Shown here: positions 8,126 through 55,272 of the stretch, in pieces
Position numbering within the stretch: the first letter of the stretch is position 1
Layout of the letters: each line of letters opens with the position of its first letter
NCBI GenBank assembly: GCA_965200785.1
Contig: CBDAVA010000003.1
Span: forward strand, 1,978,241-2,042,240
DNA: 64,000 bases
Source: Alphaproteobacteria bacterium
GTDB taxonomy: Bacteria > Pseudomonadota > Alphaproteobacteria > Bin95
Reading direction: 5' to 3'
Made by a program: the position numbers and the translations under genes
The notes under the pieces: generated by a model
Seen by the model: only the letters and a program-made list of their open reading frames with translations
Told to the model about the DNA's origin: nothing
Databases searched by the model: none

Positions 8126-8329
8126 CGGGGGACCAAAGAGGGAGACCTCCTTCTTGGCCGCTTTGCCGACGAGAATCTGGGCGGTTTTGACGAAGGCGAG
8201 CTTGCCCTTTTCGAGGCGCTTCTGGATCGCTCCGACCCGGAAGTCATGGATTGGATGACCGGTGCGGCCGCGCCGCCTGACGATCCGGTGATTGCGCGTC
8301 TGATCGCTTCCGTGCGGCGGGCCGGATGA
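8075..8329 (+). CDS. sdhE: succinate dehydrogenase flavinylation factor SdhE (DUF339)
   Basis: It is 84 aa with the RxxRAxHRGTKExDLLLGxFAD signature of the SdhE/YgfY family. This gene is typically found between recG and mfd in alphaproteobacteria. Confidence 0.75.
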   Translation: MDALEYRRKRLRFRAWHRGTKEGDLLLGRFADENLGGFDEGELALFEALLDRSDPEVMDWMTGAAAPPDDPVIARLIASVRRAG

Positions 8330-11300
8330 TCCCGCCGCTTCGCCATGCAGGGCAGTTCCTGGTCGGGGGGGCGCCGCCCGGCCACGATGCGTCGGTATTG
8401 GCGTCCCTGGCCGAGGGCGGCGGGCCGATCGTCCATATCTCCCGGGACGACGCGCATATGGCGCGCATGACGGATTGTCTGGCCTTCTTCGCGCCGCATC
8501 TGACGCTCATGCGCTTCCCGAGCTGGGATTGCCTGCCCTATGACCGCAGCTCGCCGCGCGGCGACCTGGTATCGGAGCGCCTCGCAACGCTGGCGGCGCT
8601 GGCGGACGGGGCGCGGCCCGATATCCTGCTGACCACCGCCAACGCCTTCCTGCAGCGTGTGCCGCCGCGCGCCGGCCTCGCGGGCGGGCGCTTTTCCGGC
8701 GAGGAGGGCGGCGCCCTTGATGTGGAGGCCTTGCTCGCCTTTCTGGAGCGCCACGGCTATGTGCGCGCCGACACGGTAATGGAGCCGGGGGAATATGCTG
8801 TCCGGGGCGGGCTGATCGACCTGTTTCCGGCCGGCGACAATGTTCCGTTGCGCATCGACCTGTTCGGCGACGAGATAGACGCAATCCGGCGCTTCGACCC
8901 TCTGGACCAGCGCAGTACCGAGCGGCTGGAGCGGTTCGACCTGGTGCCGGCCAGCGAAATCGTGCTGACGCAGGAGAGCATTGCGCGGTTCCGGGCCGGC
9001 TATCGTGCGGCCTTCGGCGCCGTGACGACTGACGACCCGCTCTATGAAGCCGTATCGGCGGGCCGGCGCGCCGCCGGTATCGAGCACTGGCTGCCGCTTT
9101 TCTATACCCGGCTGGAGACGCTCGGCGATTACCTTCCGGAAGCCGCAATCGTCGAGGACGAGCAGGCCAGGACGGCACGGGACGTTCGGCTGGAAGCGGT
9201 CTCCGACCATTATGCGGCGCGGCTTGAGCCGCCGCCGGGAGAACTGCCATATCGCCCGCTTCAGCCGGACAGCCTCTATCTCGATGCCGCGGAATGGGAG
9301 GCCTGCATTCAGGACCGCCCTGCGGCCATCCTGCTGCCGGGGGCAGCGCCGAACGGACCCGATGCCGGCGCCCGGCCCGCCATTGATTTTTCCGAAGCGC
9401 GGGCCCGCCCCGATATCGACCTCTACGGAGCCGTGGCCGACCGGCTCGCGGCCCATGCGGCTTCGGGGCGGCGGGTGCTGCTGGCCGCCTATAGCGAGGG
9501 GTCCCGCAACCGGCTTGCGGGGCTGCTGGGCGAGCAGGGCGTCGCGGCCCAGCCGGTCGAGACCGTGCGGGCGCTGGAAGGGCTGCCGCCCGACCGGCTG
9601 GCGACGGCGGTTCTTCCGCTCGACAGCGGTTTCGAGAGCGCCGGCCTGGCGGTCGTCACCGAGCAGGACATTCTGGGCGAGCGGCTCTCCAACCGGGCGC
9701 GCGGAAAGCGCCGGGCGCGGGACTTCCTGCAGGAGCTCTCCGAAATCGCCGAGGGCGATATCGTCGTCCATGTCGAACACGGCATAGGCCGCTATGAAGG
9801 GCTGGAGACGGTGACCGCAGCAGGCGCTCCGCATGATTGCCTGCGCATCGCCTATGCCGGCGACGGCAGGCTGTTCGTGCCGGTGGAGAATATCGAGACC
9901 CTGTCGCGCTTCGGCGCTTCCGACAGCCCGGTGGCGCTGGACCGGCTGGGCGGCGTCCAGTGGCAGGCCCGCAAGGCGCGCATGAAGCAGCGCATTCGCG
10001 AGCTTGCGCATGAGTTGATCCGCATTGCCGCGGAGCGCACCGTCCGGCCGGGCGAAACGCTGGAGGCGCCCGCCGGCCTCTATGACGAGTTCGCGGCCCG
10101 CTTCCCGTTCCCGGAGACCAACGACCAGCTCAGGGCCATCGAGGACGTGCTGCAGGACTTGTCCGAAGGCCGCCCGATGGACCGGCTGATATGCGGCGAT
10201 GTCGGCTTCGGCAAGACGGAAGTCGCGCTCCGGGCGGCGTTCGTCACGGCGATGAGCGGCTTGCAGGTGGCGGTGATCGCGCCGACGACGCTGCTTGTGC
10301 GCCAGCACTTCAAGACATTTGCCGAGCGCTTCCGGGGCTTGCCGGTGGAGATTGGCCAGCTTTCCCGCCTTGTCGCCGGGAAGGCGGCGCGCGATGTGAA
10401 GACACGCCTTGCCGACGGGCGGCTCGATATCGTCATCGGCACGCACGCCCTGCTGGCGAAGTCCATCCGCATGAAGCGGCTTGGGCTGTTGATCGTGGAT
10501 GAGGAGCAGCATTTCGGCGTGGCGCACAAGGAGCGGTTGAAGCAATACCGCAGCAATGTCCATGTGCTGACGCTCACCGCCACGCCCATTCCGCGCACCC
10601 TGCAATTGGCGCTTGCCGGCGTGCGCGAAATGAGCCTGATCGCGACGCCGCCGGTGGACCGCCTTGCGGTGCGCACGTTCGTCGGCCCGTTCGACGCCCT
10701 GACGGTCCGGGAGGCGGTCCGCCGGGAACTGCTGCGGGGCGGGCGCTGTTTTTATGTCTGCCCCCGGGTGCGCCACCTGCCGGAGGTCGCCGAGCGGCTG
10801 CGCGCCATGGTTCCGGACGCGCGCATCGGCATGGCGCATGGCGGCATGGCGGCGGCGGAGCTGGAGGAGGCGGTCGGCGCTTTTTATGACGGCCGGATCG
10901 ATGTGCTGGTCTCGACGAATATCGTCGAATCCGGCCTCGACATACCGGAGGCGAACACGCTGATCGTCCACCGCGCAGACCTGTTCGGCCTGGCGCAGCT
11001 TTATCAGTTGCGCGGCCGCATCGGCCGCGCCAAGCAGCGCGCCTATGCCTATCTGACCCTGCCGGAGCGCCGCAAGCTCACCAAGGCGGCGGAGAAGCGC
11101 CTGTCGGTCATGCAGACGCTGGACACGCTGGGCGCCGGATTCCAGCTTGCAAGCTACGATCTCGACATTCGCGGCGCCGGCAATCTGCTGGGCGACGAGC
11201 AGTCCGGCCATATCCGCGAGGTCGGGATCGAGCTGTATCAGACCATGCTGGAGGAGGCCGTCGCCGCGGCGCGCTCCGGGGTGGAGGAAGCGGAGGACGA

Positions 11301-11754
11301 GTCGTCCTGGACCCCTCAGATCGGCCTCGGCGCTCCGGTGCTGATCCCGGAAGGCTATGTGCCGGAACTGAATCTCCGGCTGTCGCTCTACCGGCGGATC
11401 GCCGCGCTGGAGGACAGGCGGCAGACGGATGCGTTCGCCGCGGAGCTCATAGACCGGTTCGGGCCGGTGCCGGATGCGCTCGAGAACCTGTTGCGCATCG
11501 TCGCCATCAAGCGCCTGTGCAGGGAGGCGGGCGTGGAGAAGGTCGATGCCGGGCCGAAGGGCGCCGTCGTCGCCTTCCGGGGCGGTTTCGCGAATCCGGT
11601 CGGCCTGGTCGCCTATATCGGCAAGCAGGCCGGTACCGCCCGGCTCAGGCCGGACCACAAGCTCGTCATCGCCCGAAGCTGGGAAAAGGAGCCGGCCCGC
11701 ATCGCCGGCGCGGAACGCCTGCTGCGAGACCTGGCGGCGATCGCCGCCGGGTAG
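8326..11754 (+). CDS. mfd: transcription-repair coupling factor Mfd
   Basis: It is 1142 aa with a UvrB-homology N-terminus, a CarD/RNAP-interaction domain (HVEHGIGRY) and an SF2 translocase core (GDVGFGKTEVA, DEEQHFGV, QLRGRIGR). Confidence 0.9.
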   Translation: MIPPLRHAGQFLVGGAPPGHDASVLASLAEGGGPIVHISRDDAHMARMTDCLAFFAPHLTLMRFPSWDCLPYDRSSPRGDLVSERLATLAALADGARPDILLTTANAFLQRVPPRAGLAGGRFSGEEGGALDVEALLAFLERHGYVRADTVMEPGEYAVRGGLIDLFPAGDNVPLRIDLFGDEIDAIRRFDPLDQRSTERLERFDLVPASEIVLTQESIARFRAGYRAAFGAVTTDDPLYEAVSAGRRAAGIEHWLPLFYTRLETLGDYLPEAAIVEDEQARTARDVRLEAVSDHYAARLEPPPGELPYRPLQPDSLYLDAAEWEACIQDRPAAILLPGAAPNGPDAGARPAIDFSEARARPDIDLYGAVADRLAAHAASGRRVLLAAYSEGSRNRLAGLLGEQGVAAQPVETVRALEGLPPDRLATAVLPLDSGFESAGLAVVTEQDILGERLSNRARGKRRARDFLQELSEIAEGDIVVHVEHGIGRYEGLETVTAAGAPHDCLRIAYAGDGRLFVPVENIETLSRFGASDSPVALDRLGGVQWQARKARMKQRIRELAHELIRIAAERTVRPGETLEAPAGLYDEFAARFPFPETNDQLRAIEDVLQDLSEGRPMDRLICGDVGFGKTEVALRAAFVTAMSGLQVAVIAPTTLLVRQHFKTFAERFRGLPVEIGQLSRLVAGKAARDVKTRLADGRLDIVIGTHALLAKSIRMKRLGLLIVDEEQHFGVAHKERLKQYRSNVHVLTLTATPIPRTLQLALAGVREMSLIATPPVDRLAVRTFVGPFDALTVREAVRRELLRGGRCFYVCPRVRHLPEVAERLRAMVPDARIGMAHGGMAAAELEEAVGAFYDGRIDVLVSTNIVESGLDIPEANTLIVHRADLFGLAQLYQLRGRIGRAKQRAYAYLTLPERRKLTKAAEKRLSVMQTLDTLGAGFQLASYDLDIRGAGNLLGDEQSGHIREVGIELYQTMLEEAVAAARSGVEEAEDESSWTPQIGLGAPVLIPEGYVPELNLRLSLYRRIAALEDRRQTDAFAAELIDRFGPVPDALENLLRIVAIKRLCREAGVEKVDAGPKGAVVAFRGGFANPVGLVAYIGKQAGTARLRPDHKLVIARSWEKEPARIAGAERLLRDLAAIAAG

Positions 11755-12378
11755 GCGCATTGCGAGGCTTTGAGGGGGAAAGGCCGCGCCCCGGCTCAAG
11801 CGCCGCGCCGGGTCTCCGGCTTCGCCGGAGGGGCGCGGGGAGGCCGGCGGGCGGCGGCGCCGGGCCCGGCAGCCGGGGCGGGCCGGCCTTGCGGGCGCGC
11901 GAAGCCCGGGGCGCGGGCCTCGCAGGACAGACTCATCCCCCCGGTTCCGAGGGGTCGAAAAAACGGACGGTGCGCGCGCAGACCGTTCGCTTCTTCTTCC
12001 TGGTGCCCATGCCCCAGCCCGCCCGGAATGGTCCGGAGCCGGAGGCAGGGAGGCCCATGAGGTTACGTGTCGCCCTCCAGACTGGGTGGACCGAGCCGTC
12101 AGGTACCGACAGCCCTGCCCATGGACCTGAAACAGCGGAGGGCCTGTCTGCCCCCGCCGTGATAGTGGTGACCATGTGGGTCTGAAGAGAACATAACACG
12201 AAAACCCTGTTTTGCAACCCTCCGGCGGAAATTTTTCTTCCGCCGGCTCTCAAGGAGTGCAATCCGATCGTCTGTCACGCGGCCGCTTAGGCGCACCCGC
12301 GCGCGGGATGCGTCCGGCTCATAAGGACATGGAAAAGCCTGTTTATGCCGATGCCGCCGCCGGTTTCCTCAACGCGAA

Positions 12379-12404
12379 ATGCCCCCGTCCAAAGACGGGG
12401 GCAT
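12379..12404. terminator. perfect 11-bp stem / 4-nt loop hairpin (ATGCCCCCGTC caaa GACGGGGGCAT) followed by ATATTTG
   Basis: This is read directly from the sequence. It could be a factor-independent terminator for a + strand transcript in the mfd-cas9 spacer, or, on the - strand, the 3' end of an RNA starting near 12500. Confidence 0.5.
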
Positions 12405-12470
12405 ATTTGCCGGCGGATGACCTTGGGATGCCGAGCCCGCACGAAGGGTCGATTTGCTGAGAAAAGGAAA

Positions 12471-12496
12471 CCGGCCGCTTCTCGATTTGCTATGCT
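12471..12496 (+). ncRNA. tracrRNA: tracrRNA anti-repeat (core of the type II-C tracrRNA gene)
   Basis: CCGGCCGCTTCTCGATTTGCTATGCT is the near-perfect reverse complement of CRISPR repeat positions 1-25 (AGTGTAGCAAATCGAGAAGCGGCCG). Antiparallel pairing gives 25 contiguous base pairs with 2 G:U wobbles. The block ends only 45 bp before the cas9 ATG. Confidence 0.65.
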
Positions 12497-12540
12497 TCCA
12501 TATCTAGCACCATAGTCATTCCTGCACAAGGAACTTCTGA

Positions 12541-13072
12541 ATGCCGCTCATCTTCGGCCTCGATATCGGAACGACATCTATTGGCTTCGCGGTCATCGAC
12601 CACGATAGCGTTTCGAGGACCGGTGCAATTCGGCGCATGGGCGTGCGTATCTTCCCCGAAGCGCGCAACTCGAAGGGCGTGCCTCTGAACCAGGAGCGGC
12701 GGGCGGCACGCATGAGACGCAGACAACTGCGCCGGCGCCGGCAACGCCGCCGCCGCCTTGGGGACATTCTCTTTGAAGCCGGCCTGCTCCCGGCGCGCGA
12801 CTCCAGCGCCTGGCAGCGGCTGATGAAGGAAACCGACCCCTACGATCTACGCCGGCGCGCGGCCGAAGGCGAGGCGCTGCCGCCGCATGATCTGGGCCGG
12901 GCGCTCTACCATCTGGCGCAGCGTCGGCATTTCAAAGGGCGGGATATCGATGAGGTTTCCGACGACACTGTGCAGGACCGGGAAGACGCTGATGAGAAGA
13001 AAGCGCAGACTGCCCGGGACCGAACAAGGGAGAGACTGAAGGAAGACGGGGGAACGCTTGGTTCCTGGCTAG
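12541..13072 (+). pseudogene. cas9: cas9 (type II-C), N-terminal fragment up to the IS insertion point
   Basis: The N-terminus MPLIFGLDIGTTSIGFAVID is the RuvC-I motif. It is followed by the arginine-rich bridge helix RRAARMRRRQLRRRRQRRRRL. The ORF then runs into the IS inverted repeat at 13073 and terminates within IS sequence. Confidence 0.85.
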
Positions 13073-14712
13073 CCCGGATTTCTCACAATGTTGAGTGCAT
13101 CGGGGTTCTGCATATGAGAAAGTTCTTTTGCGACAAAGGCTTGATCATATGCAGAGGGGTTCCCCGATGCCGGCAGAGTGTAGTCTGGGAGCGATGCGTT
13201 TTGCACGCCTTAAAGGGCGCGAGGTTGTAGCTGATTTTGGCGGTGGTGTGCTGACGTCGAACACCGGCGCGTTGCTGCTGGGGGCGACGGACCGGGCGAT
13301 CGGTCTGGTGGACCGGTTTGCGGCGTGCTTTTCGGATGGCCGCACTGCGGATCGTGTTGTGCACGATGTTGCGACCCTGGTGGGCCAGCGCGTGTTTGCC
13401 ATTGCGCTGGGCTACGAGGACCTGCTGGATCACGACGAGTTGCGCCACGATCCGGCGCTGGGTGTGGCGCTTGGCCGGCTTGAGGGGCGTCGTCGGGACT
13501 GTGCGCCGCTGGCCGGCAAATCGACGCTGAACCGTCTGGAGCACGCGCCCGAGGGCGCGCATCGCTATCGCCGCATCGGCCACGACGCCGGCGCGATTGA
13601 GGCGTTGTTCGTCGATCAGTTTCTCGACGCCCATGAGCAGGCGCCGGCGCGTCTGGTGCTTGATCTGGACGCCACTGACGACCCGCTGCACGGGCGTCAG
13701 GAGGGGCGGTTCTTCCACGGTTACTACGATTGCTACTGCTATCTGCCGCTCTACATTTTCTGCGGCGACCATCTCCTGGCGGCAAAGCTGCGGCGGGCGA
13801 ATAGTGACGCCAGCGCCGGCGCGCTGGAGGAGGTGGCGCGTATTGTCGGGCAGATCCGCGCCCGCTGGCCGGCAGTGGAGATCGTGCTGCGCGCAGATTC
13901 GGGCTTCGCCCGCGAGGCCCTGATGGCGTGGTGCGAGGACAATGGCGTCGATTATGTCTTCGGTCTGGCGCGCAATGCGCGCCTGACGGCCCGCCTGCAC
14001 CCGGCCCTGGAGCGGGCCGGGGCGCGCTGGCGCAAGAGCGGCCAGCCGGCCCGCCTGTTCACCGAGTTCCGCTATCGCACCCTGAACAGTTGGTCGCGCC
14101 AGCGCCGTGTCGTCGGCAAAGCCGAGTGGCTCCCGGGTGGTGCCAACCCGCGCTTCCTCGTCACCTCGCTGAACCCGACCACCATCGACCGGCGGACCCT
14201 CTACGAAAAACTCTACTGCGCCAGAGGCGACATGGAGAACCGCATCAAGGAATGCCAGCTCGACCTCTTCGCCGACCGCAGCTCGGCCCACACCATGCGC
14301 GCCAACCAACTCCGCCTCTGGTTCGCCTCCATGGCCTATGTGCTGCTCTCGGCACTCAGACGCATCGCCCTCGCCGGAACCCGCCTCGCCAAAGCCACAT
14401 GCCGATCCATACGCCTCAAGCTCCTCAAGATCGGCGCACAGATGCGCCTCAGTACACGCCGCATCCGCTTCGCCATGGCCGCCGCCTGCCCCCACGCCGA
14501 CGTCTTCACCCTCGCACACCAGCGATTATCCACCTGACCCCAGAGCAAGGGGACCAACCGAACCCGCCCGACAACAACACAGACACAAGACCCCAAATCA
14601 CACCGCGCCAACAGCGCAAGCACCCCCCCTGCGCGCCCCAACACGGACAACACCGCTATGCCAGACAAAACCCCCAACTCACTACACAAATGCAGCCCGT
14701 GAGAAATCCGGG
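13073..14712 (+). mobile_element. IS1380-family insertion sequence, copy 1, inserted in cas9
   Basis: The element is 1640 bp with 14-bp terminal inverted repeats (CCCGGATTTCTCAC / GTGAGAAATCCGGG). It is flanked by a 4-bp direct duplication CTAG (13069-13072 and 14713-14716). It carries a single 480-aa DDE transposase ORF. A second near-identical copy starts at 62826. Confidence 0.8.
13095..14537 (+). CDS. IS1380-family (IS4-like DDE) transposase
   Basis: GTG start. Motifs: LDLDATDDPLHGRQEGRFFHGYYDCYCYLPLY (DDE region with YGxQEG...YxPL typical of IS1380/IS4-like enzymes) and C-terminal RGDMENRIKECQL. The 480-aa length fits IS1380. Confidence 0.75.
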   Translation: MHRGSAYEKVLLRQRLDHMQRGSPMPAECSLGAMRFARLKGREVVADFGGGVLTSNTGALLLGATDRAIGLVDRFAACFSDGRTADRVVHDVATLVGQRVFAIALGYEDLLDHDELRHDPALGVALGRLEGRRRDCAPLAGKSTLNRLEHAPEGAHRYRRIGHDAGAIEALFVDQFLDAHEQAPARLVLDLDATDDPLHGRQEGRFFHGYYDCYCYLPLYIFCGDHLLAAKLRRANSDASAGALEEVARIVGQIRARWPAVEIVLRADSGFAREALMAWCEDNGVDYVFGLARNARLTARLHPALERAGARWRKSGQPARLFTEFRYRTLNSWSRQRRVVGKAEWLPGGANPRFLVTSLNPTTIDRRTLYEKLYCARGDMENRIKECQLDLFADRSSAHTMRANQLRLWFASMAYVLLSALRRIALAGTRLAKATCRSIRLKLLKIGAQMRLSTRRIRFAMAAACPHADVFTLAHQRLST

Positions 14713-14716
14713 CTAG

Positions 14717-17301
14717 CGAAACGCAGCCCGCATGAGCGCAAACGCGGCGAACATGCGACCCGCAAGATTGTTGAGGACGAATTCGACCATATCTGGCAGA
14801 TGCAGCAAGAGCATCTGCCCATTCTGAACAATACGGGTTTGAGGGGCGCCGTCCATGAAGCTGTTTTCGCTCAACGGCCTATATTCTGGCGCAAGAAGAC
14901 GCTTGGCACATGTCGCTTCGTTCCTGGCGCGGAGCTATGCCCCCGAGGCTCCTGGCTTTCTCAGCAGAAGCGAATGCTGGAGAAGGTCAACAATCTGGAG
15001 ATCGCAGGCGGAAACGCTCGCCCCCTAGACAGTGAGGAGCGCAAGGCAATCCTCGAGCGGTTGCAAGCGCAGTCGTCGATGACTTGGGCCGGTGTGCGCC
15101 GGGCACTCGCGCCGCTTTTCAAGGCGCGCAGCGAACCGGGGGCAGAAAGGCGTCTCAAGTTCAACCTCGAAATGGGCGGTGACAAGAGTCTGCCTGGCAA
15201 TTCCATCGAGAAGAAATTGAAGGACATTTTCGCCAAGGCGTGGGACAACCATCCGCACAAACAGGCAATCCGCGACACCGTTCCTGGCCGGTTATGGCAG
15301 GCCGACTACCGAGAAATTGGCGACCGGGTTATCATTCGGCCTGCCGCGGACCGCACAAGACAGCGTGATGCAGCCGCCCGGGATTTCATGCACGACTTTG
15401 GCGCAACGCAGGAGCAGGCCCACCAACTGGCAAAGCTCAAGGTGCCGACGGGCTGGGAGCCGTTCTCGATAGACGCCTTGCGGGCTTTCCTGCCCCGGTT
15501 GGAGGAAAGCGTGCGTTTCGGCGCACTCCTGAACGGCTCCGAATGGGAAGGCTGGCGCAACGAGACATTCCCCAACCGGGAGCGCCCAACCGGTGAGGTT
15601 CGGGACCGGCTGCCCAGCCCGGCTGACATTGAGGAACAGAAACGTATTGCAGCCCTGCGCAACCCGACCGTGGCGCGTGCCCGCAACGAACTGCGAAAGG
15701 TCGTCAACAACCTGATCGACATGTTCGGGAAGCCGGATCTGATCCGGGTAGAACTGGCACGAGAAGTCGGGCGGTCGAAACGCGACAGGGAAGAATATCA
15801 TGCCGCGATTCGTCGACAGGAAAGGCGGCGCAAAAAAGCAACGCAACACCTTATGGACAACGGCATTGCTGACCCATCCCGCACCGACATCGAGAAATGG
15901 CTGCTCTGGCAGGAGTGCGGGATGCAGTGCCCATACACAGGCGACCACATTTGTTTCGATGCCTTGTTCGGTGTCAATCCGGCCTTCGAGATAGAGCATA
16001 TCTGGCCGCGGCACCGCTCTCTGGACAACAGTTTCCGTAACAAGACGCTCTGCCGGCGGGATGAGAACCGGAAGAAGGCGGACAGGACGCCATATGAATA
16101 TCTGGGCTGGAAAGCAGACCGCTGGTCGGCTGTTCTGGATCGGCTCGAACGAATGATGAAGGCCGGCATGTCGCCAGGAAAGGTCAAGCGATTCAAGGCG
16201 AACAGCATTCCCGATGACTTCGCGGCGCGCCAGCTTAACGATACCGGGTACGCAGCACGGGAAGTCGTTTCATTCCTGAAGCGGCTGTGGCCGGATATAG
16301 GCCCCCAGGCACCGGTTACCGTGCAAGCGGTTTCCGGGCGCGTAACAGGGCATCTCCGCCGCCTCTGGGGCCTCAACCGGATTTTGGACGGTGACGGCAG
16401 GAAGTCCCGCGACGACCACCGCCACCATGCTGTTGATGCGCTTGTTGTGGCATGCACTCACCCCGGCATGACAAACCAGCTCTCGCGATATTGGCAGTCT
16501 ATGGAAACAGGCGCGGAACGACCAGAGCTGCCACGGCCATGGGCGTTGATCCGGGCTGACGCCGAAAGGGAGGTTTCGAGTATCGTGGTATCCCACCGCG
16601 TTCGCAGAAAACTCTCCGGGCCGCTTCACAAGGACACAATTTACGGCGATACTGGCGAGGAAGAGATCGGCAGGAGAGGATCAACATACAGGTTCTTCGT
16701 CACCCGTGAGAAAGTCGAGGAATTGAGTAAAACGAAACTGGAAGAGGAGATCCGGGACGACGCCGTTCGAGATATTGTCAAGGCTTGGGTCAGCAAGCAT
16801 GGCGGGGAGCCCAAGAAGGCGTTTCCGCCATATCCATTGCGAGGACCCAAAGGCCCGGAAATCCGCAGGGTTCGCCTGCGAAAGAAGCAGCAGATCGGTT
16901 TGATGGCTAAGGCTTCGACCGGATATGCCGATCTGGGTAACAACCACCACATCGCTGTCTATCAGCTACCGAACGGTGCAGTCGAGTATGAAGTCGTCAG
17001 TCTGCTAGAAGCATCACAACGCCTGGCGCGGAGAGAACCAGTGGTGCGACGCGAACGCGGGGACGGTGTGCGATTCATAATGTCGTTGTCTCCGGGCGAC
17101 ACCATTGAATTCAGCCATAACGGCGAGACGAAGGCGCGGGTGGTCGAGAGTGTGTGGTCAAGTGGACCAATCGTGATTGTCGATCACGAGGATGCAACCG
17201 GCAAATCTCGCTTCCGCCCCGGCGCGAAAGCGATAGTATCGAGCGGCGGGAGGAAGGTTTCCGTCGATCCCGTCGGCCGCATCCGGCCTGCAAACGACTG
17301 A
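14717..17301 (+). pseudogene. cas9: cas9 (type II-C), C-terminal fragment after the IS insertion
   Basis: The frame continues KRSPHERKRGEHATRKIVEDEFDHIWQ..., which aligns with the Nme-type REC lobe. An HNH domain (CPYTGDHICF...EIEHIWPRHRSLDNSFRNKTLC) and RuvC-III (RDDHRHHAVDALVV) follow. The two fragments together total about 1039 aa, and removing the IS plus one TSD rejoins them in frame. Confidence 0.85.
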
Positions 17302-17313
17302 CCTGCGCCGGCA

Positions 17314-18249
17314 ATGCTCCGCAAGACCGTCGAGTTTTCCACGCCCGGCACCCGGCTTTCCGTTTCGCTTCGCCAGCTTGTCGTGGAACGGCCTAACCTG
17401 CCGAAGGCAACACTGCCGATTGAAGACCTCGGTGTGCTTATTGTGGACGACACGCGCGCCACCTATACGCAATCGGTGTTCCTGGAGCTATTGCAGGCGG
17501 GCGCCACGGTGCTGGTCACCGGGCGCGATCACCTGCCTGCCGGAATGATGCTGCCGCTCGATGCCCATCATGTGCAAACAGAGCGGCACCGCGCCCAGGT
17601 CGCCGCCAGCGAGCCGGTCCGCAAGCAGGCGTGGCAAGCCATTGTGCGCGCCAAAATCGACCAGCAGGCCGCAGTTCTGTCTCATTTTACGGGCAGTCAT
17701 GGCGGGCTGGCGCCAATGGCACGCCGTGTGCGCTCGGGTGATCCCGACAATCTCGAAGCCCAGGCAGCGCAGCGTTACTGGCCCCGCCTATTTTGGAAGG
17801 ACTTTCGCCGCGACCGGAGCGCCGAGGGTGTGAACGCCCTGCTGAACTACGGCTACGCCGTAGTGCGGGCGGCGGTGGCGCGTGCTATTGTCGCCGCCGG
17901 CCTGATCCCGTCGCTGGGCGTTCACCACAGGCATCGAAACAATCCGTTTTGCCTCGCCGATGATCTACTGGAGCCGTACCGGCCTTATGTCGATTGGCGG
18001 GTCCGCCATCTCGCCGGCAACAGCGGGGATACGGTTCCGGGGCTTTCGTTGCGGGAAACCCGCGCGGCACTCCTCTCCTTGCTCAACGAGACAGTGTGCG
18101 TCGGCAGGCGCAGGGAGCCGCTGCTTCTCGCGCTGCACACCAGCGCAGCATCGCTTTGCCGGGCGTTGACCGGTGGCGAGCGGACCTTGTCTCTGCCCGC
18201 TGGTCTTCCGGTCGAGCCGGACTTGGTTGATGCCGCAGAAGTCGGTTAG
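17314..18249 (+). CDS. cas1: CRISPR integrase Cas1 (type II)
   Basis: It is 311 aa and lies 13 bp after the cas9 stop. The metal-binding residues of the Cas1 fold are present (ALLNYGYAV..., HHRHRNNPFCLADDLLEPYRP). Confidence 0.85.
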   Translation: MLRKTVEFSTPGTRLSVSLRQLVVERPNLPKATLPIEDLGVLIVDDTRATYTQSVFLELLQAGATVLVTGRDHLPAGMMLPLDAHHVQTERHRAQVAASEPVRKQAWQAIVRAKIDQQAAVLSHFTGSHGGLAPMARRVRSGDPDNLEAQAAQRYWPRLFWKDFRRDRSAEGVNALLNYGYAVVRAAVARAIVAAGLIPSLGVHHRHRNNPFCLADDLLEPYRPYVDWRVRHLAGNSGDTVPGLSLRETRAALLSLLNETVCVGRRREPLLLALHTSAASLCRALTGGERTLSLPAGLPVEPDLVDAAEVG

Positions 18250-18310
18250 CGCCTCGGCAGTGGTCCCTGGAGGGGGAGGCGCAAAGACATTTCCTTGGGG
18301 ATGGCGTTCC

Positions 18311-18616
18311 ATGTGGGTTATCGCCATGTTCGACCTTCCGACGGACACGCCGAAGGCGCGCAAGGCCTATGCCCGGTTCCGCAAGGACCTGCTGACAGAC
18401 GGTTTCTCGATGATGCAGTATTCCGTCTATATTCGACACTGCGCCTCTGTCGAAAATGCCAAGGTGCATGTCAACCGCATGGGACACTGTGTCCCGCCCG
18501 CAGGGGAGGTGCGCTTCCTGACGATCACCGACAGGCAGTTCGGCCGCATAGAGGTTCATGCCGGGAAAACCCGCAAAACGCCGCCGGATCCGCCCGCCCA
18601 GCTTGAGTTTTTCTGA
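18311..18616 (+). CDS. cas2: CRISPR adaptation protein Cas2 (type II)
   Basis: MFDLPTDTPKARKAYARFRKDLLTDGFSMMQYSVY...PPAGEVRFLTITDRQF closely resembles the S. pyogenes-type Cas2. The ATG at 18311 gives a 102-aa protein; the upstream part of track ORF 18173 is out-of-context extension. Confidence 0.8.
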   Translation: MWVIAMFDLPTDTPKARKAYARFRKDLLTDGFSMMQYSVYIRHCASVENAKVHVNRMGHCVPPAGEVRFLTITDRQFGRIEVHAGKTRKTPPDPPAQLEFF

Positions 18617-18666
18617 TAGCCGGGCGGGCTAAAACGGCCTGTTTTCAATGCCCTATGGTGAGGGCA
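18617..18666 (+). promoter_or_regulatory. putative CRISPR leader (50 bp between cas2 stop and first repeat)
   Basis: The location fits a leader. The repeats lack an obvious embedded -10 box, unlike Neisseria-type II-C repeats, so a leader promoter is expected. Which end of the array carries the leader was not established from sequence alone. Confidence 0.3.
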
Positions 18667-20022
18667 AGTGTAGCAAATCGAGAAGCGGCCGCAATCCGCA
18701 GCCGGAACACTCGCTCGACCTTCGTGCCGGCGAGTGTAGCAAATCGAGAAGCGGCCGCAATCCGCAGCCTTCTTAGGCGCGAGCAGATGCGAGATAACAG
18801 TGTAGCAAATCGAGAAGCGGCCGCAATCCGCAGCCGCGCTCTATACGCCTTCGCCTCGGAATACAGTGTAGCAAATCGAGAAGCGGCCGCAATCCGCAGC
18901 TACGCCGTGGCGCTGCTGATGGTCGCCGGCAGTGTAGCAAATCGAGAAGCGGCCGCAATCCGCAGCTATGTGACCTCCTACACATGCAGCTACACGAGTG
19001 TAGCAAATCGAGAAGCGGCCGCAATCCGCAGCCATGAAACCCAATCATCTGTATCACTATTCAGTGTAGCAAATCGAGAAGCGGCCGCAATCCGCAGCGG
19101 CGGCGCGTAAGGGACGAGGAGGCAGCCGAGTGTAGCAAATCGAGAAGCGGCCGCAATCCGCAGCGCTCGATGGTTGGTCTGGTCGAAGCCGACGAAGTGT
19201 AGCAAATCGAGAAGCGGCCGCAATCCGCAGCCAGCAGCGATATGAACAACTCGAAGGCTAAGTGTAGCAAATCGAGAAGCGGCCGCAATCCGCAGCCGGC
19301 TTCGGGATGCAGGCGTGGATACCGCGAGTGTAGCAAATCGAGAAGCGGCCGCAATCCGCAGCGCGCTTCAGGCGTGGCACACGTTCTGCGCTAGTGTAGC
19401 AAATCGAGAAGCGGCCGCAATCCGCAGCATGCTGCCCGCCAGCCGTCGGATGAATGCCAGTGTAGCAAATCGAGAAGCGGCCGCAATCCGCAGCGCGTCC
19501 GGCCCGTTGTGTTCCGTCCATCCGAGTGTAGCAAATCGAGAAGCGGCCGCAATCCGCAGCAAGCAGGGTGTGACTTACGGTGTGAAGGTTAGTGTAGCAA
19601 ATCGAGAAGCGGCCGCAATCCGCAGCTATCAGCCCATCGCCTACCGCATCGCTGAGAGTGTAGCAAATCGAGAAGCGGCCGCAATCCGCAGCCTGAGCAC
19701 AGTCATAACAGTTGTTATGTTAAGTGTAGCAAATCGAGAAGCGGCCGCAATCCGCAGCAAGCAGGGTGTGACTTACGGTGTGAAGGTTAGTGTAGCAAAT
19801 CGAGAAGCGGCCGCAATCCGCAGCTATCAGCCCATCGCCTACCGCATCGCTGAGAGTGTAGCAAATCGAGAAGCGGCCGCAATCCGCAGCGATATCGTCC
19901 ATGTAGTTGATAAGCGGGTTAGTATAGCCGCTTGGAGACCGGGGGCCAGCCGCAACCCGGGCTTCTGCGCGGGGAGGTCGCGGCATAGTATAGCCGCTTG
20001 GAGACCGAGGCTAGCCGCAACT
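18667..20022 (+). CRISPR. type II-C CRISPR array: 19 canonical 36-bp repeats plus 2 degenerate terminal repeats, 30-bp spacers, period 66 bp
   Basis: The repeat AGTGTAGCAAATCGAGAAGCGGCCGCAATCCGCAGC begins at 18667 and recurs every 66 bp through 19855. Units at 19921 and 19987 (AGTATAGCCGCTTGGAGACCG...GCCGCAAC) keep the 66-bp register but match the consensus at only 22 of 36 positions. There are 20 spacers in total. Spacers 14-15 (19561-19590, 19627-19656) are duplicated exactly as spacers 17-18 (19759-19788, 19825-19854). Confidence 0.95.
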
Positions 20023-20177
20023 CCTGTTTTCCTACCCCCCTCTGATCCACCACCTGCGCAGGATGCGGTCGAGCAGCAGTTGGCGGATGCTGGGCGCATG
20101 ACGCCTGTGCCGGCAGTGGAACGCCGGCGCGCCGTTTCGACTCGCCCGGCCCGGTCAATCCAGGCGGCGGCGGCTGG

Positions 20178-20810
20178 CTATTCGGCGGCGGCTGCGCCGT
20201 TTTGCACGAGGTCGAACAGCGGGGCGAAATATTCGGGTTCCTGGGCGCCGGAGATGGCGTAGCGGCGGTCCACGACGAAACAGGGCACGCCCTGAATGCC
20301 CATGGCGCGGGCGCGGGCATCTTCCTGCCGGACGTCCCGGACGGCTGTGTCCGACGCCAGCAGGTCCGCCGCCGCCTGCCTGTCCCACCCGGCGCGGGCG
20401 GCGATGTCCGCAAGCTGCGCCGTGTCGCCGATGTCCTCGCCGTTCAGGAAATACGCATCGAACAGGGCATCGACAAGCGCCGTCTGCCCCTCGCCGGACT
20501 CCCGGATCAGCCGATGCGCCGCGAGCGTGCTCGGCGTGCGTTCGATGGCCTCGAACCGGAACTCTATGCCTTCGGCCCGCCCGGTTTCGCGGATACGGTC
20601 ATAGACCGGCCCGCCGCCCTGCGCGCCGAATTTGAGCGCCAGATACTCCCGCCGCGCCATGCCCTCGGCCGGCATTCCGGGGTTTAGCTGGAACGCCCGC
20701 CAGCGAATGGCGGCTTCCAGGCCAGGGCGCGCCTCCAGGGCGCGGGCGAGACGCCGGCGCCCGATAAAACACCACGGACAGATGACGTCCGAGAAAATCT
20801 CGATCAGCAT
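20178..20810 (-). CDS. DsbA-family thiol oxidoreductase (FrnE / HCCA-isomerase-like)
   Basis: It has a CPWC active-site motif near the N-terminus (IFSDVICPWCFIG) on a thioredoxin-like fold, and is 210 aa. Confidence 0.7.
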   Translation of the reverse strand: MLIEIFSDVICPWCFIGRRRLARALEARPGLEAAIRWRAFQLNPGMPAEGMARREYLALKFGAQGGGPVYDRIRETGRAEGIEFRFEAIERTPSTLAAHRLIRESGEGQTALVDALFDAYFLNGEDIGDTAQLADIAARAGWDRQAAADLLASDTAVRDVRQEDARARAMGIQGVPCFVVDRRYAISGAQEPEYFAPLFDLVQNGAAAAE

Positions 20811-20852
20811 GGAGCGGCAATATAGAAGCCGCCTGCAGGGGAGGGAAGCGCA

Positions 20853-21611
20853 TTGATCGACGGTCTGTTGCGCCTGGACGGCAAGACGGTGCTGGTTACC
20901 GGCGCATCGCGGGGCCTCGGGCGGGGGTTTGCCGAAGCCGCAGCGGCGGCAGGCGCGCGCGTTGCCCTGGCGGCCCGGGACATGGCGGCCCTGGGCGAAG
21001 CCGCCGCCGGCATCAGCGGCGCCGTTGCGCTGTCAATGGATGTGACCGACCGCAACCGGGTCGCCGCCGGTTTCGACGCCGCGGAGGAGGCGCTCGGCCC
21101 CGTCCATGCCGTGGTCAACAATTCCGGCGTCGCCGTGACCCGCCGGCTGCTGGAGGCGAGCGAGGACGACTGGCGGCGGGTCATCGACACCAATCTCACC
21201 GGCGCCTGGTTCGTCGCGCAGGAAGCGGCAAGGCGGATGGCGGCGCGCGGTGAAGGCGGCAGCATCGTCAATATCGGCTCGCTGCTGGGCTTGCGAACCG
21301 GACGCGGCGCCGTTGGATATGCCGCATCGAAGGCCGGGCTGCATCACCTGACGCGCGTGATGGCCGCGGAACTCGCGCGTGACGGCGTGCGGGTGAACGC
21401 GCTGGCGCCGGGCTATGTGCTGACCGATCTTAACAAGGCGTTCTTCGCCTCGCCGCCCGGGCAGGCGCTGGCGCGGCGGGTGCCGATGGGCCGCCTGGGC
21501 CGCGCGGCCGACCTCGCCGCGCCGCTGCTCTTCCTGCTTTCCGATGCCTCGGCCTATATGACCGGCCAGATTCTGGCGGTGGACGGCGGGCACTCGGTCT
21601 CGAATGTCTGA
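20853..21611 (+). CDS. short-chain dehydrogenase/reductase (SDR)
   Basis: It has the TGASRGLG Rossmann motif, NNSG, and a YAASKAG catalytic Y..K motif. Confidence 0.8.
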
Positions 21612-54077: not shown

Positions 54078-54491
54078 ATGGAAATCTGGATTACGCCGGC
54101 GCTGGTCGTGGCGCTGGCGGCTCTCATGATCGGCATGATCCGCTCGCTGCGCGGCGATCTGGAAAGGCGCATCGACGGCGTGGACAAGCGCATCGACGAG
54201 GTGCGCAGCGATCTGGGCAAGCGCATCGACAGTGTGGACAAACGGATCGACGGCGTGGACAAGCGTATCGACGAGGTGCGCAGCGACTTGGGCAAACGCA
54301 TCGATGAGGTGCGCAGCGATCTGGGCAAGCGTATCGACAGGGTTGAATACCGGATGGACCGCCTGGAGACCGGCCTGGTCGAGGTGAAGGAAGGGTTGGC
54401 CGAAGTGCGGGGCGAACTCGGGTTCGTCCGCGACTACATCCTGCACCGCAACATGCCGGCGGAGAGGCCGCCGGCCGCACCGGCGGAATAG
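54078..54491 (+). CDS. membrane-anchored coiled-coil repeat protein, paralog 1 (137 aa)
   Basis: It has an N-terminal TM helix (MEIWITPALVVALAALMIGMI), then 7-mer and 11-mer repeats (DKRIDGV / DLGKRIDEVRS), then a conserved tail RVEYRMDRLETGLVEVKEGLAEVRGELGFVRDYILHRNMPAERPPAAPAE. A GAAGG RBS is present. Differences among the four copies are mainly synonymous. Confidence 0.65.
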   Translation: MEIWITPALVVALAALMIGMIRSLRGDLERRIDGVDKRIDEVRSDLGKRIDSVDKRIDGVDKRIDEVRSDLGKRIDEVRSDLGKRIDRVEYRMDRLETGLVEVKEGLAEVRGELGFVRDYILHRNMPAERPPAAPAE

Positions 54492-54712
54492 GCGGCTGCC
54501 GCAAGGGCCGCGCTCAAGAGCGGCGTTTCCCGCCCGTTCCCGCGCCCGGCTTCCGGCCGCATTGCCGTCAAGGTCATCAACCATCTGGGCGACGAGGCGA
54601 TGACAGTGTTTCGGGTATAGGCAGCGGATCGCGGAGGCCGCGGTTGCGGACGGAGCGCTGTCACGCTATCCATTATGCACCGGTGGTTTCCGGGCGGTAG
54701 AAGGCCTGACGG

Positions 54713-55051
54713 ATGGAAATCTGGATTACGCCGGCGCTGATTGTGGCGCTGGCGGCTCTCATGATCGGGATGATCCGCTCGCTGCGCAGCGATCTGGACA
54801 AGCGTATCGACGAGGTGCGCAGCGACCTGGGCAAGCGCATCGACGGTGTGGACAAACGCATCGATGAGGTGCGCAGCGATCTGGGCAAGCGTATCGACAG
54901 GGTCGAATACCGGATGGACCGCTTGGAGACCGGCCTGGTCGAGGTGAAGGAAGGCTTGGCCGAAGTGCGGGGCGAACTCGGGTTCGTCCGCGACTACATC
55001 CTGCACCGCAACATGCCGGCGGAGAGGCCGCCGGCCGCACCGGCGGAATAG
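54713..55051 (+). CDS. membrane-anchored coiled-coil repeat protein, paralog 2 (112 aa)
   Basis: Same architecture with fewer internal repeats (3 units) and an identical C-terminal 57 aa. Confidence 0.65.
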   Translation: MEIWITPALIVALAALMIGMIRSLRSDLDKRIDEVRSDLGKRIDGVDKRIDEVRSDLGKRIDRVEYRMDRLETGLVEVKEGLAEVRGELGFVRDYILHRNMPAERPPAAPAE

Positions 55052-55272
55052 GCGGCTGCCGCAAGGGCCGCGCTCAAGAGCGGCGTTTCCCGCCCGTTCC
55101 CGCGCCCGGCTTCCGGCCGCATTGCCGTCAAGGTCGTTAACCATCTGGGCGACGAGGCGATGACAGTGTTTCGGGTGTAGGCAGCGGGTCGCGGGGGCCG
55201 CGGTTGCGGGCGGAGCGCTGTCGCGCTATCCATTATTCACTGGCTGCTGACGGGCGGTAGAAGGCCTGACGG

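What the first reader, a model, noticed from the sequence alone, without database searches (positions are those of the whole stretch)
12379..12540. tracrRNA anti-repeat immediately upstream of cas9 with unresolved transcript polarity
Positions 12471-12496 are complementary to repeat positions 1-25 (25 bp, 2 wobbles). This canonical crRNA:tracrRNA geometry works if both RNAs are + strand, because the repeat 5' end pairs with the 3' end of the anti-repeat. A + strand tracrRNA would then have only about 45 nt before the cas9 ATG, with no obvious terminator. That leaves two options: either the tracrRNA 3' portion overlaps or reads into cas9, or the RNA is made from the - strand and ends at the strong hairpin at 12379-12404 about 95 nt away. 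The - strand option would leave the first 10 nt of the repeat unpaired, which is non-canonical. A partial echo of the anti-repeat (TCGATTTGCTGA at 12449-12460) lies between the two.
Basis: partly seen in the sequence, partly recalled or inferred. Interest (0 to 1): 0.5.

Follow-up and report, generated by a model that had tools for sequence, protein, structure and literature searches.

The report
Type II-C tracrRNA, minus strand
The sequence is an ordinary tracrRNA gene of a type II-C CRISPR-Cas9 locus, almost certainly transcribed away from cas9 on the minus strand and ending at the hairpin, so the "unresolved polarity" is settled and nothing unusual remains.

Summary
The anti-repeat is real. 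12472-12492 is the only above-chance match to the CRISPR repeat outside the array in the 64 kb window. Comparative evidence settles the polarity as minus strand; expression was not measured.

- 36 homologous elements all lie just upstream of cas9 and antisense to it. Each has a -10 box, anti-repeat, lower-stem complement, conserved core and a GC hairpin with a T-run.
- 85 of 90 distinct repeats in the family end in TAnnnT when read on the minus strand, and none do on the plus strand. This matches the repeat-embedded promoters known from Neisseria and Campylobacter.
- Repeat/anti-repeat differences are G·U-compatible on the minus strand 91 times and on the plus strand 6 times.

Repeat nt 1-8 pair with 12456-12463, which lies inside the reported "echo".

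The predicted tracrRNA runs from about 12495 to about 12371 (roughly 120 nt). It ends at the hairpin 12379-12404.

The layout is already described for type II-C loci, for example Bordetella pseudohinzii.

Side findings:
- cas9 is split by an IS1380-like element.
- The tracrRNA tail shows two crossing helices, both supported by covariation.

Interest is low.

The parts
12371..12495 (-). Predicted tracrRNA gene, about 120-125 nt: 5'-(G)CAUAGCAAAUCGAGAAGCGGCCGGUUUCCUUUUCUCAGCAAAUCGACCCUUCGUGCGGGCUCGGCAUCCCAAGGUCAUCCGCCGGCAAAUAUGCCCCCGUCUUUGGACGGGGGCAUUUCGCGUU-3'. The ends are inferred, not mapped.
   Evidence: An nhmmer profile built from relatives hits 12376-12493 on the minus strand (E = 1e-28). 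It finds 35 other loci, all antisense to cas9 and upstream of it.
12501..12529 (-). Putative tracrRNA promoter: -10 TAGATA (12506-12501) preceded by TG (12509-12508), and a -35-like TTGTGC (12529-12524) with 17-nt spacing. It overlaps the cas9 5' leader.
   Evidence: Read directly from the sequence. A TA-starting hexamer sits 6-7 nt upstream of the G of GUAGC in most relatives, and 27 of 36 match TATAAT at 4 of 6 positions or better. The window's own hexamer matches only 3 of 6, and the strict consensus scan found nothing.
12472..12492 (-). Anti-repeat upper stem: 21 nt perfectly complementary to nt 12-32 of the minus-strand crRNA repeat.
12456..12463 (-). Lower-stem half of the anti-repeat (UUCUCAGC). 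It pairs with repeat nt 1-8 (GCUGCGGA) with one C·U mismatch. It is separated from the upper stem by a tracrRNA-side bulge, 12464-12471.
   Evidence: Cofold results. The homologous UUCGCA(A)GC pairs with at least 6 of the first 8 repeat nt in 17 of 19 loci.
12410..12455 (-). Conserved tracrRNA core ('nexus' region). It contains the AAA linker, helix a (12447-12450 with 12419-12422), the invariant GGG/CCC (12436-12438 with 12425-12427) and helix c (12429-12434 with 12410-12415). Helices a and c cross, giving a pseudoknot topology.
   Evidence: the count of structure pairs on 36 sequences. All helices: 83% paired, covariation 0.245 against 0.113 in shuffles, 0 of 500 shuffles as high. Helix a: 0.329 against 0.119. 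Helix c: 0.270 against 0.164.
12379..12404 (-). Intrinsic-terminator hairpin of the tracrRNA (11 bp, loop UUUG), followed by the interrupted U-tract UUUCGCGUU (12378-12370).
   Evidence: An equivalent GC-rich hairpin followed by at least 5 T in 10 nt occurs in 27 of 36 homologues.
18667..19890 (-). CRISPR array: 19 identical 36-nt repeats and 18 spacers of 29-31 nt. The crRNA sense is the minus strand: repeat GCUGCGGAUUGCGGCCGCUUCUCGAUUUGCUACACU, ending in an extended -10-like TGCTACACT.
   Evidence: TAnnnT lies at the 3' end of the minus-strand repeat in 85 of 90 distinct family repeats, against 0 of 90 on the plus strand.
12541..13072 (+). cas9 5' part (codons 1-177), ending at the IS insertion site.
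13073..14712 (+). IS1380-like insertion sequence interrupting cas9. It has 14-nt perfect terminal inverted repeats, CCCGGATTTCTCAC (13073-13086) and its reverse complement (14699-14712). The 19-nt perfect inverted match reported by the repeat finder also takes in the CTAG copies and one flanking base. CTAG target-site duplication (13069-13072 and 14713-14716); transposase ORF 13095-14537.
   Evidence: Pfam DDE_Tnp_1_4, E = 3e-150. Inverted repeats. Excising the IS restores an open 1038-aa Cas9.
14717..17301 (+). cas9 3' part, with the HNH and RuvC-III domains.
17314..18606 (+). cas1 (17314-18249) and cas2 (ORF 18295-18606, start uncertain). No csn2 or cas4 is present, so the locus is type II-C.
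   Evidence: Pfam Cas_Cas1. The Cas2 family is recorded for the identical metagenome contig.

Best explanation
The region encodes the tracrRNA of a type II-C CRISPR-Cas9 locus, read from the minus strand, divergently from cas9.

**Transcript (inferred).** Transcription would start at about 12493-12495, roughly 7 nt downstream of a weak extended -10 (TGcTAGATA). It would end at the intrinsic terminator 12379-12404 plus its U-tract. The RNA would be about 120 nt.

**Pairing with crRNA (shown by sequence and comparison).** The 5' part of the tracrRNA pairs with the 36-nt repeat of crRNAs that are also minus-strand transcripts.
- A 21-bp upper stem (12472-12492) pairs with repeat nt 12-32.
- An asymmetric internal loop follows.
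- A 7/8-bp lower stem (12456-12463) pairs with the spacer-proximal repeat nt 1-8.

**crRNA transcription (inferred by analogy).** crRNAs are probably started inside the array from the -10-like TGCTACACT at the 3' end of each repeat, as shown for N. meningitidis and C. jejuni.

**Cas9-binding scaffold (structure supported by covariation, binding inferred).** After an AAA linker, the tail forms a conserved, covarying core and the terminator hairpin.

**State in this genome (inferred).** cas9 is split by an IS element, so the RNAs may still be made but interference is probably inactive.
For: 1. **Position and strand.** A profile of the element finds 36 homologues in 161 Cas9-anchored loci. All lie on the strand opposite cas9, and nearly all are within about 150 nt upstream of its ATG.
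2. **Conservation is one-sided.** The minus-strand sequence downstream of the anti-repeat is highly conserved and ends in a GC hairpin with a T-run (27 of 36 by a strict test). The 45 nt between the anti-repeat and cas9 are conserved only at a -10-like box.
3. **Repeat-embedded -10.** 85 of 90 distinct repeats have TAnnnT at their 3' end on the minus strand and 0 of 90 on the plus strand. This is the arrangement described for Nme and Cje (PMC5965381; PMC3737331 reports those arrays as transcribed opposite to the cas operon).
4. **Wobble asymmetry.** In 45 loci, 91 repeat/anti-repeat transitions give G·U in the minus-strand reading and 6 in the plus-strand reading.
5. **Lower stem.** Repeat nt 1-8 are paired in 17 of 19 loci, and 7 of 8 are paired in the window.
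6. **Co-evolution.** Own repeat:tracrRNA duplexes average -53.7 kcal/mol against -40.1 for swapped partners.
7. **Tail.** Tail helices are supported by covariation.
8. **Plus-strand tail is poor.** Its fold is weak (-19.8 kcal/mol over 104 nt, against -36.2 over 83 nt for the minus-strand tail), and it runs into the cas9 coding sequence.
9. **Published precedent.** The same layout, a divergent tracrRNA with promoter and terminator upstream of cas9, is published for B. pseudohinzii type II-C (PMC4624362).
Against: - No expression data exist.
- The strict consensus scan finds neither a promoter nor a terminator in the window. The -10 matches only 3 of 6 positions and the U-tract is interrupted (AUUUCGCGUU).
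- The window's only two transition differences (12493, 12494) are G·U-compatible in the plus-strand reading and are C·A/A·C mismatches in the minus-strand reading. They do fall at or before the predicted tracrRNA 5' end.
- Duplex energy alone does not discriminate between the strands: -49.5 kcal/mol (minus) against -52.0 (plus).
- The window's own duplex is the weakest of 14 compared, and 8 of 13 foreign tracrRNAs would pair with its repeat as well or better.
- cas9 is disrupted, so present-day function is doubtful.
Confidence: 0.9

Rival explanations
1. Plus-strand tracrRNA. Both crRNA and tracrRNA are made from the cas9 strand. The anti-repeat 12471-12496 pairs with the first 25 nt of the plus-strand repeat. 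The tracrRNA tail overlaps or reads into cas9.
For: The plus-strand duplex is marginally more stable (-52.0 against -49.5 kcal/mol), and its two non-Watson-Crick positions are G·U wobbles. The degenerate repeats lie at the cas-distal end of the array. By the usual rule this would suggest a cas-proximal leader and plus-strand transcription.
Against: - No tail is available. Only 45 poorly conserved nt lie before the cas9 ATG, there is no terminator, and the fold is weak.
- None of 90 family repeats has a -10 at its plus-strand 3' end.
- Wobble asymmetry is 91 to 6 against it.
- The conserved core and terminator are on the other strand in all 36 homologues.
- The degenerate-repeat rule is documented to give the wrong direction for the type II-C arrays of Nme and Cje (PMC3737331).
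Confidence: 0.03
2. Decaying relic. The element is a former tracrRNA gene in a locus already inactivated by the IS in cas9. It is no longer expressed or no longer competent to bind crRNA and Cas9.
For: - cas9 is split by an IS.
- The window's tracrRNA differs from the family consensus at pairing positions: G to A at 12493, and a change at 12460 that creates a lower-stem C·U.
- It has the weakest own duplex of 14.
- The -10 is weak and the U-tract is interrupted.
Against: - The IS insertion looks recent. It has perfect terminal inverted repeats and an intact target-site duplication, and excision restores a full open reading frame.
- All 19 repeats are identical.
- The conserved tracrRNA core and the terminator stem are intact.
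- The deviations are few and fall at tolerant positions.
Confidence: 0.05
3. Dual use of the region. In addition to the minus-strand tracrRNA, the cas9 mRNA starts within or upstream of the tracrRNA gene, or from a shared bidirectional -10. Antisense pairing or promoter interference would then regulate cas9. This is compatible with the main explanation.
For: The tracrRNA -10 and -35 lie inside the 45-nt stretch upstream of the cas9 ATG, which leaves almost no room for a separate cas9 promoter. A weak plus-strand TTGCTA-18-CATAGT can be read at 12487-12516.
Against: That plus-strand promoter-like site was read only in the window. In the one relative examined by eye (L001) its spacing is not kept, and no systematic check was made. 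The consensus scan found no promoter on either strand. There are no transcript data.
Confidence: 0.15

Closest known systems
Type II-C tracrRNA/crRNA system of Neisseria meningitidis (Zhang et al. 2013; Chylinski et al. 2013, PMC3737331; review PMC5965381)
   Same: - A minimal cas9-cas1-cas2 operon followed by an array of 36-nt repeats.
- The array and tracrRNA are read opposite to the cas operon.
- A -10 element (TGnTAcAaT-like) sits at the 3' end of every repeat.
- The tracrRNA has a 5' anti-repeat and a Rho-independent terminator.
- Degenerate repeats lie at the end that is upstream in the crRNA sense.
   Different: - The tracrRNA sits upstream of cas9 and is divergent, a different position from the Nme locus as I recall it (not checked here).
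- Repeat and tail sequences are unrelated.
- Cas9 is only distantly related (best PDB hits are the Nme1-type Cas9 of entry 6jdq and other type II-C Cas9s, which I identify as Nme1- and Geo-type from memory because the output names only 'Cas9'; E about 1e-61 to 1e-65, mainly over the HNH/RuvC region).
- The tail core shows crossing helices rather than simple stem-loops.
- Nothing here was tested experimentally.
Bordetella pseudohinzii type II-C locus (Ivanov et al. 2015, PMC4624362)
   Same: [quoted passage not shown] This is the layout found here.
   Different: It comes from a different bacterial lineage. I did not compare the sequences, so homology of the RNAs is untested. That tracrRNA was also only predicted.
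Campylobacter jejuni tracrRNA / CjCas9 sgRNA (Dugar et al. 2013, PMC3656092; triple helix noted in PMC7737000, citing Yamada et al. 2017)
   Same: - Type II-C, with repeat-embedded promoters.
- The tail contains a UUGCGGG-like motif inside a helix whose loop bases pair with a downstream segment, so it is non-nested. I am recalling the Cje tail sequence and its UUGCGGG-like motif from memory; no tool compared them. This resembles helices a and c here.
   Different: - The Cje tracrRNA lies at a different position in its locus and is shorter.
- The resemblance of the tails was judged by eye and from memory, with no alignment.
- The solved CjCas9 chain (5x2g) matches the Cas9 here only weakly (E about 2e-18).

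Membership tests
tracrRNA (trans-activating CRISPR RNA of type II systems) | An anti-repeat complementary to the CRISPR repeat, located outside the array | tested here: met
   21-nt perfect core at 12472-12492, the only above-chance match in 64 kb. With the lower stem, 28 of 36 repeat nt are paired.
tracrRNA (trans-activating CRISPR RNA of type II systems) | Encoded in an intergenic region within or next to a cas9 locus | tested here: met
   It lies 45 nt upstream of the cas9 ATG, in the mfd-cas9 intergenic region. There is no credible ORF across it.
tracrRNA (trans-activating CRISPR RNA of type II systems) | Own promoter and Rho-independent terminator on the strand that makes the RNA complementary to crRNA | tested here: inconclusive
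   On the minus strand the hairpin 12379-12404 plus an interrupted U-tract and TGcTAGATA are present. They are conserved in position among relatives. The strict consensus scan reports none in the window.
tracrRNA (trans-activating CRISPR RNA of type II systems) | Anti-repeat co-evolves with the repeat of its own locus | tested here: met
   Own duplexes average -53.7 kcal/mol against -40.1 for swapped partners. Wobble-compatible substitutions number 91 against 6. The duplexes of 19 loci are shown.
tracrRNA (trans-activating CRISPR RNA of type II systems) | Guide-RNA modules: lower stem, bulge, upper stem, nexus-like core, 3' hairpin(s) | tested here: met
   Lower stem 12456-12463, bulge 12464-12471, upper stem 12472-12492, covarying core 12410-12455 and terminal hairpin. 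These are predictions, not structure probing.
tracrRNA (trans-activating CRISPR RNA of type II systems) | Expressed small RNA that binds Cas9 and supports crRNA maturation and interference | not testable with these tools
   No transcriptome or biochemical data are available. In this genome cas9 is interrupted.
Rfam tracrRNA family | Match to a curated covariance model | tested here: not met
   No CRISPR or tracrRNA family matched 11500-21000, even at E up to 10. This is expected, since tracrRNAs are highly diverse in sequence (PMC3737331).
Type II-C CRISPR-Cas | cas9-cas1-cas2 only, with no csn2 or cas4; compact Cas9 of about 1000-1100 aa | tested here: met
   Cas9 is 1038 aa after IS removal. 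Cas1 is and Cas2. The array follows directly, and the next gene is a DsbA-like gene.
Type II-C CRISPR-Cas | Array transcribed opposite to the cas operon from promoters embedded in the repeats | tested here: inconclusive
   The sequence motif is met: TGCTACACT at the minus-strand 3' end of each repeat, and TAnnnT in 85 of 90 family repeats. Transcription itself is untested.

The most novel reading that the evidence does not exclude
The Cas9-binding tail of this tracrRNA clade may fold as a conserved pseudoknot. Helix a (12447-12450 with 12419-12422) and helix c (12429-12434 with 12410-12415) cross each other, and both show compensatory changes across 36 loci. No structure of a close relative of this Cas9 clade has been solved, so this could be a guide-RNA scaffold architecture not yet described. 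The nearest parallel is the non-nested triple-helix tail of the C. jejuni sgRNA.
Probability: 0.4. Interest if true: 0.35.

Novelty: new member of a known kind. Interest (0 to 1): 0.12.

Why it matters
It matters little beyond annotation.

- It fixes the strand and approximate ends of the tracrRNA and the crRNA sense for this locus and about 35 related ones. That is what would be needed to design a single-guide RNA for this roughly 1040-aa Cas9 clade.
- It shows that repeat/anti-repeat geometry read from one strand can mislead in type II-C loci. Comparative signals decide the strand without RNA data: the -10 in the repeats, wobble asymmetry and the conserved terminator.
- The crossing helices in the tail could interest people engineering compact Cas9 guides.
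- In this genome the system is probably dead, because an IS splits cas9.

Tried and rejected
- **Rfam scan** of 11500-21000 at E up to 10 gave only noise hits.
- **Consensus promoter/terminator scan** of 12100-12700 found nothing on either strand. The signals are weaker than its thresholds.
- **RNAcofold of both polarity models** gave near-equal energies, as expected for complementary strands, so it cannot decide the strand.
- **First genome-contig request** failed. The repeat request worked.
- **Exact look-up of the 775-aa Cas9 fragment P0001** found no contig. The Cas1 look-up did, but those contigs carry the same IS junction, so they say nothing about an IS-free allele. The organism was not identified. 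Relatives include Thalassobaculaceae and other Alpha- and Gammaproteobacteria MAGs.
- **Full-text search for the repeat sequence** gave only an irrelevant hit. The search for P. lavamentivorans tracrRNA returned three papers, which I did not open. My recollection that PlCas9 uses a near-identical repeat is memory only. PMC4041416 is not held.
- **The 'echo' as a second, alternative anti-repeat** was rejected. In relatives the second AGCAAA... copy stays constant while the anti-repeat changes (for example L010, L087, L015).
- **A hairpin GACCC/GGGCUC as the first tail stem** was rejected in favour of helix a, which keeps pairing through double changes in L008, L010, L012, L014-L016.
- **Small ORFs across 11754-12540** look like high-GC artefacts.
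- **MAFFT misaligns the 3' arm of helix c** in about 7 distant sequences, which lowers the count for that helix. I did not build a covariance model to correct it.

Full report
**Locus context**

The window carries these features in order:
- mfd (8326-11754, +);
- a 790-nt gene-poor spacer;
- cas9, starting at 12541 with the RuvC-I motif MPLIFGLDIGTTSIGF;
- cas1 (17314-18249);
- cas2 (ending at 18606);
- a CRISPR array at 18667-19890.

The array has 19 identical 36-nt repeats (plus strand AGTGTAGCAAATCGAGAAGCGGCCGCAATCCGCAGC) and 18 spacers of 29-31 nt. No csn2 or cas4 is present, so the locus is type II-C.

cas9 is not intact. An IS1380-like element (Pfam DDE_Tnp_1_4, E = 3e-150) occupies 13073-14712. 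It has 14-nt perfect terminal inverted repeats (CCCGGATTTCTCAC); the repeat finder's 19-nt perfect match extends through the palindromic CTAG copies. The CTAG is a target-site duplication. Removing the IS restores one open frame of 1038 aa.

**Checking the observation**

The anti-repeat is real. The 25-nt 5' part of the plus-strand repeat matches, with 3 mismatches, one site outside the array: 12471-12495, read on the minus strand. No such match occurs in 100 shuffles. In a whole-window local alignment the perfect 21-nt core 12472-12492 scores 42. The runners-up score 26 or less, and shuffled windows reach 20-27. So there is no better anti-repeat in these 64 kb. The hairpin 12379-12404 (11 bp, 8 G-C) and the 'echo' at 12449-12460 are also present.

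**Why the single sequence cannot decide the strand**

A duplex and its complement have nearly the same energy: -49.5 kcal/mol for the minus-strand pair and -52.0 for the plus-strand pair. The consensus scan finds no promoter or terminator on either strand, and Rfam has no matching family. I therefore turned to relatives.

**Comparative evidence**

The repaired Cas9 has about 800 database homologues at E of 1e-30 or better. I fetched 80 genome loci and 80 metagenome loci anchored on Cas9, all oriented with cas9 on the plus strand. Five independent signals point to the minus strand.

1. **Conserved element.** On the strand opposite cas9, just upstream of its ATG, relatives share one ordered element:
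   - a -10-like hexamer;
   - 6-7 nt later, GUAGCAAAUCGAGAAGYGGYCG, the anti-repeat upper stem;
   - a short linker ending in UUCGCA(A)GC;
   - AAA;
   - a highly conserved core, ...GACCCUUYGYGCGGGCUCGGYRUCCCAAGGUCAUCCRCCGG;
   - a GC-rich hairpin followed by T's.

   A profile of this element finds 36 copies, every one antisense to cas9. A strict test finds the hairpin plus at least 5 T in 10 nt in 27 of 36. The -10 matches TATAAT at 4 of 6 positions or better in 27 of 36. More distant loci (Cas9 30-36% identical) show the same order with different sequences, and a full-length 36-nt anti-repeat followed by (U)AAG... and a terminator.

2. **Promoter motif in the repeats.** Of 90 distinct family repeats, 85 end in TAnnnT when read on the minus strand (TACACT, TACAAT, TATAAT, TAAAAT and others). 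None does on the plus strand. Here the repeat ends in TGCTACACT. This is the repeat-embedded promoter known from N. meningitidis and C. jejuni type II-C arrays (PMC5965381), whose arrays are transcribed opposite to the cas operon (PMC3737331).

3. **Wobble asymmetry.** Where repeat and anti-repeat differ by a transition, the pair remains G·U on only one strand. Across 45 loci this favours the minus strand 91 times and the plus strand 6 times.

4. **Co-evolution.** Each repeat pairs better with its own tracrRNA (mean -53.7 kcal/mol) than with those of other loci (-40.1).

5. **Quality of the tail.** The plus-strand 'tail' is 45 poorly conserved nt followed by the cas9 coding sequence, with a weak fold. 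The minus-strand tail folds strongly and is conserved.

**The supposed non-canonical geometry**

It does not. The minus-strand repeat starts GCUGCGGA, and this pairs with tracrRNA UUCUCAGC at 12456-12463 (G-C, C-G, U-A, G-C, C·U, G-C, G·U, A-U).

Between this lower stem and the 21-bp upper stem lies an asymmetric internal loop: repeat UUG against tracrRNA 12464-12471. In relatives the homologous UUCGCA(A)GC pairs with at least 6 of the first 8 repeat nt in 17 of 19 loci. L008 shows a compensatory change, with repeat GUUG... paired to tracrRNA ...UAAC. This is the standard arrangement of lower stem, bulge and upper stem.

The 'echo' is this lower-stem end (AGC), the AAA linker and the first bases of tail helix a. 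It does not track changes in the anti-repeat across loci, so its 10-nt identity to the anti-repeat here is largely coincidental.

**Predicted RNAs (inferred)**

- **tracrRNA:** from about 12495-12493 to about 12377-12371, roughly 120 nt. The family median predicted length is 119 nt.
- **crRNA:** about 23-24 nt of spacer followed by GCUGCGGAUUGCGGCCGCUUCUCGAUUUGCUACACU, before any trimming.

The two degenerate repeat-like copies at 19921 and 19987 lie upstream of the array in the crRNA sense. This is the same 'wrong-end' situation reported for Nme and Cje (PMC3737331).

**Caveats for this particular copy**

- The -10 matches only 3 of 6 positions (TAGATA, with an upstream TG).
- The U-tract is interrupted.
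- The two non-Watson-Crick positions near the 5' end (12493-12494) would be mismatches on the minus strand, although they sit at or before the predicted start.
- The lower stem has a C·U mismatch.
- The window's own duplex is the weakest of 14 compared.

With cas9 split by the IS, these may be early signs of relaxed selection or simply neutral variation. I cannot tell which.

**Tail structure**

In the conserved core, two helices are supported by compensatory changes.
- **Helix a:** GACC/GGUC, which becomes GAUC/GAUC, GGUCC/GGACC, GCUUC/GAAGC, GACAU/AUGUC or GCGUC/GACGC in relatives. Its covariation score is 0.329 against 0.119 ± 0.015 in shuffles, with 0 of 500 shuffles as high and slid controls at 0.087 or less.
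- **Helix c:** UCGGCA/(C)GCCGG, with C-G to U-A and A-U to G-C exchanges. Its score is 0.270 against 0.164 ± 0.016, with 0 of 500 shuffles as high and slid controls at 0.150 or less.

The two helices cross, so together they form a pseudoknot topology. The C. jejuni sgRNA is reported to form a triple helix between its stem-loops (PMC7737000, citing Yamada et al. 2017). No structure of a close relative of this Cas9 has been solved; the best PDB matches are type II-C Cas9s (among them entry 6jdq, which I recall as Nme1Cas9) at E about 1e-61 to 1e-65. I treat this as a side observation.

**Comparison with what is known**

A divergent tracrRNA with its own promoter and terminator upstream of a type II-C cas9-cas1-cas2 operon is explicitly described for Bordetella pseudohinzii (PMC4624362). 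Antisense array transcription and repeat-embedded promoters are textbook type II-C features. The element is therefore a new member of a known kind. It is absent from Rfam but has no unexpected property.

Noticed in passing
window 13073-14712 (target-site duplication CTAG at 13069-13072 and 14713-14716): cas9 is interrupted after codon 177 by a 1640-bp IS1380-like element (DDE_Tnp_1_4 transposase, 13095-14537). It has 14-nt perfect terminal inverted repeats (the 19-nt perfect match found by the repeat finder includes the CTAG copies). Precise excision restores a 1038-aa Cas9. The same IS/cas9 junction is present in contigs from other samples (L164), so it is not an assembly artefact.
   Followed up: yes
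window 62826-64000: A second copy of the same IS starts here. It is 99.2% identical over the 1175 nt visible, is also preceded by CTAG, and runs off the end of the window.
   Followed up: partly
window 12410-12450 (minus strand); alignment A3: The conserved tracrRNA core contains two crossing helices supported by covariation (pseudoknot topology), plus an invariant GGG/CCC pair.
   Followed up: partly
window 19525-19692 and 19723-19890: A 168-nt block of the array is duplicated exactly (two spacers with their repeats). The spacers AAGCAGGGTGTGACTTACGGTGTGAAGGTT and TATCAGCCCATCGCCTACCGCATCGCTGAG each occur twice.
   Followed up: partly
window 19921-19956 and 19987-20022: Two degenerate, repeat-like copies (AGTATAGCCGCTTGGAGACCG...GCCGCAAC..) continue the 66-nt register beyond the last perfect repeat, at the cas-distal end. 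That end is the 5' side of the array in the crRNA sense. They may be remnants of an older or different repeat type.
   Followed up: no
window 12493, 12460 and 12371-12378: This copy of the tracrRNA deviates from the family consensus at a 5' pairing position (G to A), in the lower stem (creating a C·U) and in the U-tract. Its own repeat duplex is the weakest of 14 loci compared. This may reflect relaxed selection after cas9 was inactivated.
   Followed up: partly
window 12497-12540: The tracrRNA promoter elements fill nearly all of the 45 nt upstream of the cas9 ATG. The location of the cas9 promoter is therefore unclear; it could overlap the tracrRNA promoter, share a bidirectional -10 with it, or lie upstream.
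   Followed up: no
window 11755-12370, including hairpin CCGGCGGAA-ATTTTTC-TTCCGCCGG at about 12222-12246: About 600 nt between mfd and the tracrRNA terminator have no credible ORF. They contain another strong 9-bp hairpin of unknown role.
   Followed up: no
window 54148-56176: Several overlapping tandem-repeat arrays (periods 21, 33, 54, 75 and 129 nt; unit such as TGGACAAGCGCATCGACGAGGTGCGCAGCGACC). They probably encode a repetitive protein.
   Followed up: no
L002 7857-7987: In this relative the tracrRNA lies about 2 kb upstream of cas9 instead of about 50 nt, which suggests an insertion between the two genes.
   Followed up: no
L017 9805-9954: This tracrRNA homologue carries an insertion of about 25 nt (CCATCCTGTGACCGGCTGCTTGCAGC) inside the anti-repeat/linker region.
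   Followed up: no
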